Source: Carcharhinus longimanus (Eukaryota). From it: a stretch of 64,000 bases of DNA. This document shows positions 1-59,000 of this stretch, piece by piece; position 1 is the first letter of the stretch, and each line of letters begins with the position of its first letter. The DNA lies in assembly GCA_030264375.1 (NCBI GenBank), contig JASCQW010000162.1, forward strand, positions 41,521,786-41,585,785, given 5' to 3'. Made by a program: the position numbers.

Positions 1-3000
1 CATGCTTGCCTTCATCAGTCGAGGATTGAATACAAGAGTTAGGAAATCATGTTACAGGTACATAAAACCACGGTTAGGCCGCATTTGGAGTATTGCATGC
101 AGTTCTAGTCACCACAATATCCGAAGGCTATGGAGGCTCCCTCAATATACTAACCTTGACCAACAATAGGTTACTTGTTTTTTTTAGAAAGGAACAGAGA
201 AGTGTTTATAAGGATAGCATTTATATTAACATTGTGCAGAAAGGGCCTATCACAAAGGCTTATTTACTGCACTTTGATAGTTTTCAGTACTTACAGCATT
301 TTTCAACGTGTATTGAGAAGTGATGTTCTCCACCTCGTCAACTGTGAAGGAATTCATGCTGAAACTACTTGGTTCAGAGTCATCATTCATTAGAAATTTG
401 TAGTATTCTTCATTAGCTGCAGCAGAAATAAACAGCAAAATGATAATCACACAACACTATTCAAAAAAAAATGAAATGATCAGTCTCATCTTAAACGCTT
501 AAAGCCAAAAAGATATCTTCCCCTTGCTGATCCTATATGGAACATCCCTCTTGGAAATTTAAAAACAAAACTGCTGAGTATATCATAAAAGAATCCAGTC
601 AAATTGTGGGAATGACATGAAAATTAGGAGTGTACAATTGTTGTCATTAAAATGTTTTCTTCTAGGGATACGACAGCTGGTAAAGTAATGAAAGTGACTT
701 TAACTTTATCTGCCCAGTGGATAGCAGACAAGCCTGCACTTAAAATCATCCAGGTTATGAATCGGCCTTCAAGCTGTGGGAAGATGACCTGTCTTTAACC
801 TGCTCAACTAAGCAGATGGCAGCAAAATGCAGCCACAAATGGCAGATTCTCAGCACTTCATTAGGACCTGACTGCAATTTTAACGACTTTTTTTCAAAAT
901 CTCTCTCCACATAGGTGACAGCCAGCTTTTTGTTTTAATTCTACCTACCCTAATATTCTTGACAGTCTATGAAGGTAGGATACAGGTTGAGGTACTTCTC
1001 TCTTGCCCATCCTCAAAAATGTTAAAGTCTCTTAAAAATATAATATTGCAGGCATACCTTTCACTTGTTTGACACATCGCAGTGCATACTTCAGTGTAGA
1101 AAGTGTCCTGGATTTTCCTTTAGTCATCTTATCAGATGGCAGGTGCCTTTTTAAGACACTCAGTGCTTTAATCAACTCTTTCTGTGTCTTTGCTTTAGCG
1201 GATTGATCGCTACTGCAATACAAATACAAACTCACAGCTTTAGCCCTATATTTAATGTGATATTTGTAGGCAAAATTCAAGGCCATCACAAGCTATAACC
1301 AAGCAAGTTACAGAGATTAATGTACGCAACAGAAATAAAAAGGAAACTTCTCATGGTGGTCATTTCATCTGCTGATTTAGTTCATTAAATTTAAACAGGG
1401 CAAAACGTGAGAAGTTCCTGTGAGTCCATGCTGGACTATTCCACACTGCTGCATTATTGGAAAATAGTTCAGTGAATTTATTCAGAGTGATTGAGCCATG
1501 AAAGCAAGTAACTGCCCACTTTTGAAAAGTAAAAATCTATTTAGTAGTCACAAATAAGGCTTACATTAACATTGTAATGAAGTTACTGTGAAATTCCCCT
1601 AGTCGCCACATTCTGGCGCCTGTTTGGATCAGCACATCTAATCAGCACATCTTTCAGAATGTGTGAGGAAACTGAAGCACCCGGAGGAAATCCATGCAAA
1701 CACAGGGAGAACATGCAAACTCCACACAGATACTGACCCAAGCCAGGAATCGAACCCAGGTCCCTGGCGCTGTAAGGCAGCAGTGCTAACCACTGTGCCA
1801 CCATCCCCTGGCTATACTGACAAATCTGCAGCCAGGCAGTATTAGTGCTGGAACTTATCACAGGTCCAGTGCGTTTGAAAAGGGGTTGGAAGGGAAGTCA
1901 AGCTCCCACTTCTTGTCACTATCTAGTGGTCCTTGCCAAAAATGTGCAATGTAGCAGCAGGTGACTATGTCAGTGCACATGTCTGACTTTCACTCCTAAA
2001 GTTCACAATGAAAAAGAAGCACTTGGATGAGTTCTTGCTCGTCACTTGAAAATTGCAAAACCAATGTCTAATAAGAGAAGTAGTAGTTCAGGAAAAGAAT
2101 GCAGAGAAAAAAAAAACCATGATGCTTAAACTGCTCTCATCAGCCTGCCAGTGTGTCTGGTGCCTTAGTAAATAGCTTACAGAAGGGATAAACCCACTAT
2201 TTGAGATGATGCAAACATCTTAAGTCAGCACACATCATGCTTCCAGGCACTGTTAAAGGGAATTTCTGATTATTAGGACAGACAATACAAATTAAAATAT
2301 CTTGCATTTTTTATTTTTTTTTACAGATTACAATTGCAAAAGACAGGTTGACCTGGGGCCAAAAAATGTTCTTACATTAAAATAGACCAATATTCATAAA
2401 TGAAACAAATACAAATTGGAATACATCAACTTGTTGACTTCACGGTAGATTACTTGCAAAGCAACTTATAATATCATTTAAAAAAGTGTGTTGCATATGT
2501 GTCATGTTTACTATCAATCCACTGTCTAACTGTAGTGGGAAGGAACAGTAAAAGAAAAAAACTATGAAGGTTTACTAGTTCTCTGACTTACAGATTGGGC
2601 TCAAATCTGACCCCTCTAAAAAAGCCTCATAGCCAAGAATCAGATATGAACTACCTCCCCCCCCCCCGCCCCAAACAAGAATTGGTACCTTATTCAGAAA
2701 GGCAATTGAAATTGAATATAGCAGCGCACTGAGCTGTTAAACAGCTTGCAGTTAAATCACATGGGTGTACAGGTTCGCGGGAGTTTACTGTGCATACATG
2801 TGATGTGCAAGTATTTGGTACCAACAGAATAACTAACATCTCTTACACTAAAGCAGCTCAAAACAATTACCAAGGGAAGTCAAGAAGAACTAGCATCTAC
2901 CTGCAACCACTCGTTGAGGGATTGTCTTGTTCCGAGCTAGCACTAATGAGACTGAATCCATTTGAGCTGCTGTGAAGTGACAGGCTCTGGGAATTGGAAC

Positions 3001-56000: not shown

Positions 56001-59000
56001 AAGAGCCCTTACATACCAAGTCTGACTGAGAGAATGGGGATTTCCTTCTTGAAAATGATTACACTTCACAGGGTTATGATTGATTTTTTTATGGTAATGA
56101 GCGAGTTACAATCTGTCCAAGTAGATGTCACTGAAGCTCAATAGGCAGCGAAGGAGTAGGGGACATCAATCAGTGCAATTGCTGAAAAATTATATTTTCC
56201 TCCTTTCTCTATTGTAAACAAAAGAAAAAAAAATCAGTGTAAAGAATAAAACCGAAAAACAGTGAATTCGGACAAAGNNNNNNNNNNNNNNNNNTATTTT
56301 TCAGCATAGACTTCAAAGATCTGTGTTTTACACAGCAAATTTCAACAAGAATTGAAAATACAAATGTCCTAAGTATGGACCCAAGAGACCTTTAAGGAGC
56401 AGAAGCAGAAGCATGTGTTTTCAAATTCATTAAAAAGAACTTGGATATTTAATTCCCCATCCAAAATGTGCCAAAGTTTTTCAAAGAGCACAATAAGGCA
56501 AGATTTGGCATGAATAAAATGAACACATTGAAACAAGATGTGATTGTAATCCATTTGTATAGTCCACCTCCATTTCCATTCTATATAAATTGGGTGTGTG
56601 CACGTCATTCACCGATGACAATAGATCTTGCAGCAAGGTCAGTTACTCGCTCATATGGAAACATAGGGCCACCTAGTGGCTGACTGACGCAAACGAAAGA
56701 ATTCAGGCCAAATACGGTTTGGAGCTCATTCATTACTGCACAAATAAAGTGTCCATTCCTAAGTAGTGGGAAACTGAGAGCTATTTTATAATTTCCTTAT
56801 AAATCATAGGGTTTTTCTTCTGGGAGATGAGACTGAGACCACATGACTAGGCTGTTGTTAACATCATGTACTCAGATAGCCAGTGGTGCGTACTGGCTTT
56901 TCTTAGAATTTCACAGTGCCTCTGGTGGCCTATCTTAAACTGAAACTGCTCATGTCTGGAAATGTACACACCTATTCCCATGTGGTAATCAGACCAATCC
57001 TACCCCACAATATTTCCGCTTCCCCATCCATAATTTGGGAACGGTCTTATTTCAAGTGATTGTAAAATTTCCAAAGGGAATAAATCAGTCGCCTGAAGAT
57101 AGCTTGTTTTAAAACCGTTTTCCTGATACAACTCCTATGTGCTACGTCTTAGAATCAGCTTGGTCAAATGACCCTGGGTTTAAGTTTCCTTTTCCTGAAC
57201 TCAGCCACAGAGCAATGGAACCTACCTCATCCACTTGAGCCTGTGTTTGCTGCAGTCGTCTGTTGCTCGTGGTGTTGACGGGTTGCGTTGGTCCTCCATC
57301 TCCAGGAGGTCCTCCTGCACCAGGAGCAGCAGCTTGGGATGGGGCGGACCTACAAACCAAAATAAAGCAGATTTCTTGTTAACTGTATAGTGCATCAGTC
57401 AGCATATCGATTGTACAATATGTTCCCAATAGTATCTGGTAATCAGGGGTTGGCCAGTGGTGAACTGATGATCTGTTTGGGGCAGTTTACAGTGAAGTGT
57501 ATTGTCAGTCAAAAAAAGGTCACAATATTGACCAGTGTAGACCTTGTTGAGAGGCAAGAATTATTAAAAAGCCCCATTTGGAATTCTCATTTACCTGGGG
57601 AGCTTTACTCTATTCAAATTAAAATAGCACATCATGAACCCACTGACCTAGACTACTGAAATTCAATGCTTAGGCTTCAACTACAACAGTTGACTTCAAA
57701 GTTATTGTTTTGTTTCAAAGGAGACATTGACAGTAAGCTGCATTTTGCTCAGTGCATTCACTTTTGCTGTGCAGCATGCTATATTTCTGGACTTGACTAC
57801 AGATAGGGGACAGGATTTTTTTTGTTTCGGGGAGAGGGCCACTATTATTGCTAGAATTCTAGCAGTGGTCAAAGATATTCCAGGTAGGAAAGTGCACTTA
57901 GAGATCAATGGACTTAAATTTTGAACTTAAAGAGTGGTTAACTTCAGACGATCAAATACTTCTTCAGATAAAATGATTCTCACACAATAATAACTTATAT
58001 ATCACCTTAAACATAAAACATTACGATAAATAAACAGGACTGTGAACCATATAAAGGGATAATGGCCCAGGAGGTGGGTTCCCAAAAACAGCGAACACAG
58101 AGGTGTTTGTCACAATTGAAAATTGAAACTGCACTGCAAGCTTAGCACCTCATTGGGCTCCAGAGGAGTCTCTGATAATGGTCCCACTTGTGTTGTCTTG
58201 TAAAGAGGCAGGGACCCTTATTTGGTCAGTTTTGGCAGGTGACCAAAATCTTGGTCAAAGAGGTGGGTTTTGAGGAATATCTTAAAGGAGGGAGAGAAGC
58301 CTTGGAGGAGTCAGACTTCTCAGACAATCTGCAGTTCAGATACTTACTGTAATCAAAGGGTGGGAATAGACCCAGGCAAACACAAAATTAGTTCCCCTCC
58401 CCTGACCTTCATGCACAGAACTGCCTAGTAAAAAAAAATGCAAAAACTCTGATGTTATCATGGAAGAAAGGTGCAAATCAAAATAAACCACTCTCATGCA
58501 CGAGTGAGAAATAATCCTAAACAGAAAGCAAAGTACCAGCACCGGCCTTTACCTTGGCAACATTTTTATATAATGACATTTTCCAACATGCTGAAGTGAG
58601 GAATGAAACACCCTTTTTATTATTGGCTCCAGTATCAACCTTCAGTATTCCTGACAGTAACCAGTAAACCTCTTCTCTATCCAGCTCTATCCAGCAAAGG
58701 GTTAACCTCAATCCCAGGTAGCAAAGCACTGAGGTGGGTCTTTTTCATTTCCTTGGTGTGGTTTTAAAATCAGCAATATGTTTAACCACTACGACACTTA
58801 CTTACCTATTTCAGGCATGGTGACACATGTTTACTGTACTTACTTTTCTCAAGGGAATCCAAATCAAATTGGATCAAATTTGCATCTTCCCAAACTGATA
58901 TCTTCAATTCAGTATTTAGCTCCTAATATGACGACACAAAGAATCAATACCAGTTGGCAACCTCCATATCTTGATCGCTCAATTACTGCCCTAGTAAGCT

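What the first reader, a model, noticed from the sequence alone, without database searches (positions are those of the whole stretch)
295..57349. Synaptobrevin directly upstream of a PER2-type gene: candidate fourth VAMP1/2/3 ohnolog
Seen: a VAMP gene and a Period gene head-to-tail on the minus strand with no other recognisable gene between them. Established: human VAMP2-PER1 (17p13) and VAMP3-PER3 (1p36) have this arrangement, while PER2 (2q37) has no adjacent VAMP. The Period exons here are PER2-like (ANEEYY, LKYALRCVKQVK, DDVEM..GSSG, short exon 2 UTR, CACGTT promoter). The VAMP is a mosaic: QTQAQ and MMIILG as in VAMP2; DEVVDIMR/FETS unlike VAMP1; KNCK and GAIC unlike mammalian VAMP2; long N-terminus and TM unlike VAMP3; a distinctive IYFCT end. 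Inference: this may be the VAMP-PER2 copy from vertebrate genome duplication, a fourth synaptobrevin kept in cartilaginous fish and lost in mammals.
[Added by the scan's program, not by the reader: the finding's places include an assembly gap (unread letters, written N; its length is only estimated) at 11544 to 11553, 22888 to 22987, 28339 to 28438, 29779 to 29878, 31953 to 31974, 37404 to 37420. Whether the letters on both sides are continuous or in frame is not known: test that first.]
Basis: partly seen in the sequence, partly recalled or inferred. Interest (0 to 1): 0.8.

Follow-up and report, generated by a model that had tools for sequence, protein, structure and literature searches.

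The report
Synaptobrevin gene directly upstream of shark PER2
In this shark sequence a synaptobrevin (VAMP) gene lies just upstream of the clock gene PER2, as expected for a fourth VAMP-PER gene pair left by the early vertebrate genome duplications, but the protein is too short and conserved to prove which VAMP it is.

Summary
On the minus strand the window carries exons 2-5 of a 117-codon VAMP1/2/3-class synaptobrevin (57349..46656). About 32 kb downstream lie the promoter and first coding exons of a Period gene, which runs off the left end. No assembly gap touches an exon.

The window is close to, but not identical with, Mustelus asterias. That species' full-length PER protein hits PER2 only: 0 of its best 120 matches are named PER1 or PER3.

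The VAMP and PER2 share one chromosome-sized sequence in 4 of 4 elasmobranchs with data. Turtles and crocodilians carry a "VAMP2-like/VAMP1-like" gene with the same IYFCT end. It shares the PER2 chromosome in 4 of 5 turtles.

Protein trees put the shark clade outside well-supported VAMP1, VAMP2 and VAMP3 clades. They cannot place it: joining it to any of the four groups is not rejected (p-AU 0.23-0.54).

The fourth-ohnolog reading therefore rests on gene position, not on sequence. Flanking genes and the number of VAMP genes in shark genomes could not be checked.

Verdict: plausible and partly supported, a new member of a known kind, of moderate interest.

The parts
57226..57349 (-). VAMP exon 2: the variable N-terminus (41 codons) plus the G that completes the start codon
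   Evidence: AG acceptor and GTAGGT donor read. 38 of 41 residues match Mustelus P0121.
53494..53652 (-). VAMP exon 3: the SNARE motif (53 codons)
   Evidence: Pfam Synaptobrevin, E 4.2e-20. PDB VAMP2, 101.7 bits. 53 of 53 residues match P0121.
50390..50441 (-). VAMP exon 4: the transmembrane anchor (17 codons plus 1 nt)
   Evidence: Borders read. 16 of 17 residues match P0121.
46656..46672 (-). VAMP exon 5, coding part: the last residues (IYFCT) and the TGA stop. The end of the 3'UTR was not determined.
   Evidence: Read. It has the same end as P0121, P0124 and P0126.
14043..14060 (-). PER2 promoter element: CACGTT, a 6-bp spacer, then TGCGTG (an 'EE-element' layout). It lies in the window's most CpG-rich stretch, with CCAAT and GC boxes just upstream.
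   Evidence: Sequence read. CpG observed/expected is 0.40-0.48 at 12001-16000 against 0.13-0.31 elsewhere. The layout matches the Per2 element described in PMC2254435 (passages seen). Function here is inferred.
13949..14040 (-). Inferred non-coding PER2 exon 1, ending at a GTAAGC donor (GT at 13948-13947). Its start is not known.
   Evidence: Sequence read. There is no transcript evidence, so this is an inference.
7887..8148 (-). PER2 first coding exon (ATG at 8134, 14 nt of 5'UTR)
   Evidence: One search found 16 chondrichthyan PER proteins at E 5e-34 to 2e-22. P0009 is identical over its part of this exon.
6033..6137 (-). Alternative, frame-keeping PER2 cassette exon (105 nt) that encodes a basic KKRKRR stretch
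   Evidence: tblastn with Hemitrygon P0016 gave 83% identity over 35 aa. AG/GT borders read. The motif is present in 6 of 120 stored PER2 proteins, all chondrichthyan.
2901..2999 (-).
   Evidence: 33 of 33 residues match P0009.
1058..1212 (-). PER2 coding exon holding the bHLH-like domain
   Evidence: Pfam bHLH_PER, E 7.2e-22. 52 of 53 residues match P0009.
295..416 (-). PER2 coding exon (ANEEYY...). The gene continues beyond the left end of the window.
   Evidence: 41 of 41 residues match P0009.

Best explanation
The window is the VAMP-PER2 block of a carcharhiniform shark close to Mustelus.

The VAMP encodes an ordinary tail-anchored R-SNARE: a variable N-terminus, a SNARE motif with the central arginine, and a single C-terminal membrane anchor. 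It should pair with syntaxin and SNAP-25/23-type partners to drive vesicle fusion.

Its place, directly upstream of PER2 and in the same orientation, mirrors VAMP2-PER1 and VAMP3-PER3. So it is most simply the copy of an ancestral VAMP-PER pair that went with PER2 in the two early vertebrate genome duplications. That copy was lost in mammals. It was probably kept in elasmobranchs, turtles and crocodilians.

Shown: the gene structures, the adjacency, the PER2 identity of the neighbour, and the shared chromosome in other species. Inferred: the ohnolog status, the equivalence with the sauropsid gene, and the function.
For: PER2 identity:
- The closest full-length PER model (P0009) is 98-100% identical to the window's exons.
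- 104 of its best 120 matches carry an explicit PER2 name, from coelacanth, gar, bichir, lungfish, birds, turtles, monotreme, marsupial and teleosts. None is named PER1 or PER3. The other 16 are 'hypothetical', unnamed or have cut-off names.
- Gar PER2 scores 1371 bits, and no gar PER1 reaches the list's floor of 1105.
- Only one PER2-like gene per chondrichthyan species appears.

Adjacency and orientation were read directly.

Linkage elsewhere: the VAMP hit and the PER2 hit of one species have the same longest-contig length in 8 of the 11 species that have both.
- All 4 elasmobranchs match: Mustelus, Rhincodon, Heterodontus, Heptranchias.
- 4 of 5 turtles match: Malaclemys, Mauremys mutica, Carettochelys, Eretmochelys.
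- The three misses are Terrapene, gar canonical VAMP2 and Carassius VAMP1-like. The last two serve as natural controls.
- Gar per1 is on LG2 and per2 on LG14 (table in PMC6723592).

Sequence:
- In the final tree the shark clade (99/94*) lies outside VAMP1 (99/97*), VAMP2 (95/88*) and VAMP3-type (100/100*).
- Holding sharks together with the sauropsid type costs 0.00 lnL (p-AU 0.505).
- The IYFCT end occurs in 21 of 88 rows with a natural tail: 4 shark, 14 turtle or crocodilian, 3 unnamed. It occurs in 0 of 18 VAMP2-type rows.
- The best non-shark exon-wise match is the turtle gene, at 98 of 115 residues, against 95 for gar VAMP2.

Background: Vamp2-Per1-Hes7 contiguity and Per2-Hes6 adjacency in mammals come from PMC8746294 (passages). 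VAMP3-PER3 adjacency and the absence of a VAMP beside human PER2 are recalled, not from a call.
Against: - The protein tree gives no positive support. The best trees put the shark clade weakly with VAMP2: 69/52 and 76/73 under LG+G4. That is also what a plain shark VAMP2 ortholog would look like.
- Joining sharks with VAMP1 (p 0.544) or with the VAMP3 type (p 0.233) is not rejected either, so the test has no power.
- An earlier test of sharks plus 10 sauropsid rows gave p 0.019. It forced two rows out of their clade. With those rows included, p was 0.118.
- NCBI names the Mustelus and Rhincodon orthologs plain 'VAMP2'.
- No second, canonical VAMP2 of any elasmobranch turned up. Those searches were not exhaustive, and the 150 representatives carry no names.
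- Sharks lack the sauropsid-type marks (LDN for LDD, NV[TS]SN, GVVC).
- IYFCT may be an ancestral state, since lampreys end in LYFCL.
- Sharing a chromosome is not adjacency, and the turtles are not independent observations.
- Over the PAS domains the shark protein scores the same against mouse PER1 (477.1 bits) and mouse PER2 (474.2). Gar PER2 shows only +12 bits for PER2 and alligator PER2 +91. That region does not discriminate at this distance.
- Five assembly gaps lie between the two genes.
Confidence: 0.6

Rival explanations
1. The gene is the elasmobranch ortholog of VAMP2. Sharks have three VAMP1/2/3 genes, and this one came to lie beside PER2 through a rearrangement.
For: - The shark clade is sister to the VAMP2 clade in the best trees, weakly: 69/52 and 76/73.
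- NCBI names it 'VAMP2' in Mustelus and Rhincodon.
- No other elasmobranch VAMP2 was seen.
Against: - A move would have to recreate exactly the position and orientation seen in VAMP2-PER1.
- It has none of the states shared by all 18 VAMP2-type rows (a non-Cys residue after WWKN, a VYFS[TS] end).
- The VAMP2 clade excludes it at 95/88*.
- The other four elasmobranch models, named 'VAMP2-like' or 'VAMP3-like', all have aberrant ends. The naming may therefore reflect model quality and not orthology.
Confidence: 0.25
2. It is a displaced ortholog of VAMP1 or VAMP3.
For: - It shares KNCK and GAIC with VAMP1-type rows, and exon 3 is identical (53 of 53) to a VAMP3-type row.
- The AU test does not reject either join (p 0.544 and 0.233).
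Against: - It lacks QVEE and FES[SC] of the VAMP1 type.
- It lacks the short N-terminus and the MWAI anchor of the VAMP3 type. Exon-wise identity to that type is 77-78 of 115.
- It lies outside both starred clades.
- An unnamed VAMP1-type row (P0193) may be chondrichthyan, but that could not be checked.
Confidence: 0.07
3. It is a lineage-specific extra copy made within cartilaginous fishes, unrelated to the genome duplications.
For: The shark clade stands alone in the trees.
Against: - It is present from Heptranchias to Mustelus (8 elasmobranch species).
- It has the full five-exon layout, so it is not a retrocopy.
- Its position mirrors the other VAMP-PER pairs.
- The same end and the same chromosome partner occur in turtles.
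Confidence: 0.05
4. The adjacency is a scaffolding error across one of the five intergenic gaps.
For: Gaps lie at 22888-22987, 28339-28438, 29779-29878, 31953-31974 and 37404-37420. Three are 100-N placeholders. Only one of the five could be tested for continuity.
Against: Both genes lie on one chromosome-sized sequence in 4 of 4 other elasmobranch assemblies with data.
Confidence: 0.03

Closest known systems
VAMP2 (synaptobrevin-2), next to PER1 in mammals
   Same: - The same five-exon layout and nearly the same length (117 aa here, 116-117 aa in the named VAMP2 rows).
- Exon 3 matches 52 of 53 residues, and overall 94-95 of 115.
- It sits upstream of a Period gene in the same orientation (Vamp2-Per1 contiguity, PMC8746294).
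   Different: - The neighbour here is PER2, not PER1.
- KNCK instead of KN[LAM]K, GAIC instead of GVIC, IYFCT instead of VYFS[TS].
- It lies outside the VAMP2 clade (95/88*).
Turtle and crocodilian 'VAMP2-like' / 'VAMP1-like' proteins (e.g. Malaclemys P0134, Crocodylus P0163)
   Same: - The same IYFCT end and KNCK.
- Similar length and a similar N-terminal PGAGGPP stretch.
- The highest non-shark identity, 98 of 115.
- On the PER2 chromosome in 4 of 5 turtles.
- A join with the sharks costs no likelihood.
   Different: - LDN for LDD, NV[TS]SN for NTTSN, GVVC for GAIC.
- Not united with the sharks in any free tree.
- Adjacency to PER2 was not seen, only a shared chromosome.
VAMP1 (synaptobrevin-1)
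   Same: KNCK and GAIC, and a read-through alternative end that starts with SKY.
   Different: QVDE/FETS here against QVEE/FES[SC], and IYFCT against IYFFT. It lies outside the VAMP1 clade (99/97*).
VAMP3 (cellubrevin), next to PER3 (recalled)
   Same: Identical exon 3 (53 of 53 to P0307), and a position beside a Period gene.
   Different: A long N-terminus and an MMIILG anchor instead of the short N-terminus and MWAI anchor. Identity is 77-78 of 115.
PER2 of jawed vertebrates
   Same: - All of the best 120 matches of the closest full-length model that carry a paralog name are PER2.
- The bHLH_PER domain is present.
- A CACGTT element with a 6-bp-spaced second E-box-like site lies near the inferred start, as in mammalian Per2 (PMC2254435).
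   Different: - An elasmobranch-only alternative exon encoding a basic stretch.
- PAS domains equally similar to mouse PER1 and PER2.

Membership tests
Synaptobrevin / VAMP1-2-3 class R-SNARE | Synaptobrevin SNARE domain | tested here: met
   Pfam PF00957 at E 4.2e-20, 71.8 bits against a cut-off of 26.4. PDB VAMP2 at 101.7 bits.
Synaptobrevin / VAMP1-2-3 class R-SNARE | Central arginine of the SNARE motif and a single C-terminal membrane anchor | tested here: met
   Read in the exon 3 and exon 4 translations. Which residue is the zero-layer arginine is recalled, not taken from a call.
Synaptobrevin / VAMP1-2-3 class R-SNARE | Five-exon layout in which exon 1 gives only part of the start codon | tested here: inconclusive
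   Exons 2-5 are present with the expected phases. Exon 1 was not found in the window. The layout of the mammalian genes is recalled.
VAMP2 orthology group | Nested in the VAMP2 clade | tested here: inconclusive
   It lies outside the clade of 7 VAMP2 rows (95/88*). It is weakly sister to that clade (69/52).
VAMP2 orthology group | Lies beside PER1 | tested here: not met
   The neighbour is PER2-type.
VAMP1 orthology group | Nested in the VAMP1 clade and carries its marks (QVEE, FES[SC], IYFFT) | tested here: not met
   It lies outside the clade (99/97*) and the marks are absent. The AU test still does not reject a sister position (p 0.544).
VAMP3 orthology group | Short N-terminus and an MWAI-type anchor | tested here: not met
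   (77-78 of 115 identical). It lies outside the clade (100/100*).
PER2-linked VAMP of sauropsids (candidate fourth ohnolog) | On the PER2 chromosome | tested here: met
   Directly adjacent in the window.
PER2-linked VAMP of sauropsids (candidate fourth ohnolog) | One clade with the turtle and crocodilian genes | tested here: inconclusive
   Not united in the free trees. Holding them together costs 0.00 lnL, p-AU 0.505. Under LG+G4 the result was p 0.118.
PER2 orthology group | Closer to PER2 than to PER1 or PER3 over the full length | tested here: met
   0 of the best 120 matches are named PER1 or PER3, and 104 are explicitly PER2. No PER tree was made, because no PER1 or PER3 sequences could be fetched.
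PER2 orthology group | HES6 downstream, TRAF3IP1/ASB1 upstream | not testable with these tools
   Both lie outside the window, and no eukaryotic genome collection was on hand.

The most novel reading that the evidence does not exclude
Jawed vertebrates began with four VAMP-PER pairs. The PER2-linked synaptobrevin is an unnamed fourth member of the VAMP1/2/3 family. It survives in sharks and rays, turtles, crocodilians and probably birds, under labels such as 'VAMP2-like', 'VAMP1-like' or even 'VAMP2', and it was lost in mammals. In elasmobranchs it may be the main neuronal synaptobrevin.
Probability: 0.55. Interest if true: 0.55.

Novelty: new member of a known kind. Interest (0 to 1): 0.4.

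Why it matters
If the reading is right, the textbook trio VAMP1/2/3 is a mammalian remnant of a quartet, and the missing VAMP beside PER2 is explained. Database names for this gene in sharks, turtles and crocodilians would then be misleading for work on orthologs.

It would also give a fourth case of VAMP-PER linkage kept for over 400 million years. That bears on whether neighbours of Period genes share their regulation. Forced CLOCK/BMAL1 expression raised Vamp2 beside Per1 (PMC8746294). Vamp3 was the top expression correlate of Per3 in one mouse data set (PMC7031657).

The function is most likely ordinary vesicle fusion, so the gain is in evolution and annotation and not in a new mechanism.

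Tried and rejected
- My first impression, from recalled mammalian sequences, was that the N-terminal PER exons look like PER1. I dropped it. The same motifs occur in PER2 of coelacanth, bichir, gar and a carp, and the full-length ranking is all PER2.
- PAS-domain scores against mouse PER1, PER2 and PER3 structures do not discriminate at this distance.
- The first AU test of sharks plus the sauropsid type (p 0.019) was badly posed, because two rows of that clade were left outside.
- The search for VAMP exon 1 by its expected donor found nothing upstream. There is no CpG-rich stretch at 57-64 kb.
- Literature searches found no paper on a fourth VAMP or on a VAMP beside PER2. 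One search was poorly aimed. One search found 0 papers with all six terms.
- The catfish paper reports tmem70-per2-capn10 in teleosts, without a vamp (PMC12191489, passages).

Full report
**What is in the window**

The window is AT-rich (40.6% G+C) and CpG-poor. One CpG-richer stretch lies at 12-16 kb. There are nine runs of N.

Reading the borders gives the following.
- A VAMP gene with exon 2 at 57349..57226, exon 3 at 53652..53494, exon 4 at 50441..50390 and exon 5 from 46672, with the stop at 46658..46656.
- A Period gene with coding exons at 8148..7887 (ATG at 8134), 2999..2901, 1212..1058 and 416..295. It continues beyond the left end.

Pfam finds Synaptobrevin in VAMP exon 3 (E 4.2e-20) and bHLH_PER in the third PER exon (E 7.2e-22). 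The other four exon pieces sent, which are short and variable, match no family. The nearest solved structures to exon 3 are VAMP2 chains.

Each exon went in on its own. Full-length comparisons used database proteins of the closest species instead.

**Gaps**

None of the nine gaps lies in an exon. The Mustelus asterias models P0121 (VAMP, 118 aa) and P0009 (PER, 1258 aa) align to the window exon after exon without missing residues. No coding exon is therefore hidden in a gap.

One gap is in PER intron 1, three are in VAMP introns, and five are between the genes. Continuity could be tested for only one of the nine. The flanks of 29779-29878 match a single uninterrupted copy at 30712-31052. The adjacency of the two genes thus depends on the scaffold being right.

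Independent support is that both genes lie on one chromosome-sized sequence in four other elasmobranch assemblies (see "Linkage in other species").

**Source organism**

The first PER coding exon finds 16 proteins among 226 candidates.
- 14 are named PER2 or PER2-like.
- One is named 'hypothetical'.
- One has no name.
- All 15 with a species name are chondrichthyan.

The window is very close to Mustelus asterias but not identical. There is one difference in the four PER exons and several in the VAMP N-terminus and anchor. It comes from a related shark.

**Is the Period gene PER2?**

P0009 has 2218 relatives at E<=1e-10 among the 8000 candidates scored. Of the best 120, 104 carry an explicit PER2 or PER2-like name. 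Sixteen are 'hypothetical', unnamed or have cut-off names. None is named PER1 or PER3.

The order follows the species tree: elasmobranchs, chimaera, coelacanth, bichir, gar, then tetrapods and teleosts. Only one such gene appears per chondrichthyan species.

A tblastn of 12 PER2 proteins against the window hits the exons as follows.

| Window exon | PER2 proteins that hit it |
|---|---|
| First coding exon | 10 of 12 |
| Second coding exon | 5 of 12 |
| Third coding exon | 12 of 12 |
| Fourth coding exon | 12 of 12 |

Against this, the PAS domains do not discriminate (bits against the mouse structures).

| Query | Mouse PER1 | Mouse PER2 | Mouse PER3 |
|---|---|---|---|
| Shark protein P0001 | 477.1 | 474.2 | 387 |
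| Gar PER2 | 499.8 | 511.8 | 417 |
| Alligator PER2 | 473 | 564.2 | 393.1 |

The promoter holds CACGTT, a 6-bp spacer, then TGCGTG at 14060..14043. CCAAT and GC boxes lie upstream and a canonical CACGTG lies at 14208. This is the layout described for mammalian Per2 in PMC2254435 (passages). That paper reports 6-bp-spaced pairs in all three Per genes, so only the CACGTT first element points to PER2.

**Which VAMP is it?**

The N-terminal exon found 57 proteins at E<=10 among 170 candidates.
- Eight are elasmobranch orthologs.
- Seventeen are turtle rows and three are crocodilian rows, named 'VAMP2-like', 'VAMP1-like' or unnamed.
- The rest are VAMP1, VAMP2, lamprey, hagfish and teleost proteins.

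A full scan of 1.84 billion representatives with P0121 added 150 unnamed sequences.

The end IYFCT occurs in 21 of the 88 rows that have a natural tail.
- 4 are shark rows.
- 14 are turtle or crocodilian rows.
- 3 are unnamed.
- No row among the 18 of VAMP2 type has it. Lampreys end in LYFCL.

Exon by exon, the window is most like the turtle gene outside sharks.

| Compared with | Identical residues of 115 |
|---|---|
| Turtle gene (Malaclemys) | 98 |
| Gar VAMP2 | 95 |
| Lamprey | 95 |
| VAMP1-type rows | 90-94 |
| VAMP3-type rows | 77-78 |

These margins are small.

**Trees**

Of the 197 VAMP sequences, 113 were dropped before the first tree: they had unnatural tails, lacked the anchor motif or were duplicates. 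That left 84 rows.

The final tree has 40 rows and 118 columns, uses a site-heterogeneous model, and leaves out unnamed mammal-type rows. It gives these groups.

| Group | Rows | Support |
|---|---|---|
| VAMP3 type | 4 | 100/100* |
| VAMP1 | 9 | 99/97* |
| VAMP2 | 7 | 95/88* |
| Sauropsid type | 14 | 84/89 |
| Sharks | 3 | 99/94* |

All five join in an unresolved fork together with lamprey and hagfish.

AU tests on this tree:

| Sharks held together with | Result |
|---|---|
| Sauropsid type | costs 0.00 lnL, p 0.505 |
| VAMP2 | already the best tree, support 69/52 |
| VAMP1 | p 0.544 |
| VAMP3 type | p 0.233 |

Earlier runs under LG+G4 gave 76/73 for sharks with VAMP2 and p 0.118 for sharks with the 12-row sauropsid clade. 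The groups were named after the first tree had been seen.

The sequence therefore shows only that the shark gene is not nested in VAMP1, VAMP2 or VAMP3. It cannot say to which of the groups it belongs.

**Linkage in other species**

The search tables give the length of the longest contig that holds each protein. I used this length as a fingerprint of the chromosome. Eleven species have both a VAMP row and a PER2 row, and the two lengths agree in 8 of them.
- Matches: Mustelus, Rhincodon, Heterodontus, Heptranchias, Malaclemys, Mauremys mutica, Carettochelys and Eretmochelys.
- Misses: Terrapene (its VAMP is seen on two contigs), gar canonical VAMP2 and Carassius VAMP1-like.

The last two are what one expects of genes that do not belong to the PER2 block. 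Gar per1 is on LG2 and per2 on LG14 (PMC6723592, table seen).

A shared chromosome is not adjacency, and the turtles count as one observation.

**Reading**

Vamp2-Per1-Hes7 are contiguous in mammals, and Per2 lies beside Hes6 (PMC8746294, passages). In teleosts vamp2 flanks per1a, and per2 sits in tmem70-per2-capn10 (PMC12191489, passages). VAMP1 lies in a further conserved block (PMC9664204, passage). VAMP3-PER3 adjacency is recalled.

A VAMP directly upstream of PER2, in the same orientation, is most simply the fourth copy of an ancestral VAMP-PER pair.

The main rival is that this is simply the shark VAMP2. That fits the weak tree signal and two NCBI names. It requires a relocation that happens to mimic the ancestral arrangement.

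**What stayed open**
- The flanking genes.
- The number of VAMP loci in shark genomes.
- The names of the unnamed representatives (could not be made).
- A PER tree.

The collections that hold eukaryotic contigs were closed. The open genome collection holds bacteria and archaea only.

Eight literature searches found no account of a fourth VAMP or of a VAMP beside PER2. The library lacks most subscription journals, and supplements were closed.

Noticed in passing
window 6033-6137 (-): An alternative, frame-keeping PER2 cassette exon of 105 nt encodes a basic KKRKRR stretch, possibly a nuclear-localisation signal. It is present in 6 of 120 stored PER2 proteins, all chondrichthyan, and absent from their 'isoform X2' models and from every bony-vertebrate PER2 in the set.
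   Followed up: partly
window 50360-50393 (-): Reading through the exon 4 donor of the VAMP gives an alternative end (ISKYFYWNI, then a stop). Very similar ends (ISKYLYWNT) are in the Scyliorhinus, Carcharodon and Heptranchias models. Turtle models end ISK, and VAMP1-type rows end SKYR. This could be a real second isoform or a by-product of the donor consensus.
   Followed up: partly
window 29733-30168 and 30712-31052: The two flanks of the 100-N gap at 29779-29878 match one uninterrupted copy about 0.9 kb away at 91-96% identity. This is either a local duplication or an assembly artefact.
   Followed up: partly
window, e.g. 10364-10463, 12647-12871, 33582-33806, 49271-49526, 54140-54370, 61106-61378: An interspersed repeat of about 240 bp has at least 12 copies on both strands at 65-86% identity. 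Its translations recur in the ORF list. A fragment of a LINE endonuclease lies at 40009-40362.
   Followed up: no
stored proteins P0197, P0228, P0235, P0240, P0248, P0251: A tight group of unnamed representatives clusters with the turtle and crocodilian VAMP (100/99*) but ends in IYFST. They may be birds, which would widen the range of the PER2-linked VAMP. Their names could not be looked up.
   Followed up: partly
stored proteins P0001, P0020, P0030: The preference of PER2 PAS domains for mouse PER2 over mouse PER1 shrinks with distance: +91 bits in alligator, +12 in gar, -3 in shark. This region should not be used to tell PER1 from PER2 in early-branching vertebrates.
   Followed up: yes
window 19926-20442: Dinucleotide runs are followed by a roughly 33-nt unit repeated about three times. 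It is seen as repeated peptide units in the ORF list. It was not examined.
   Followed up: no
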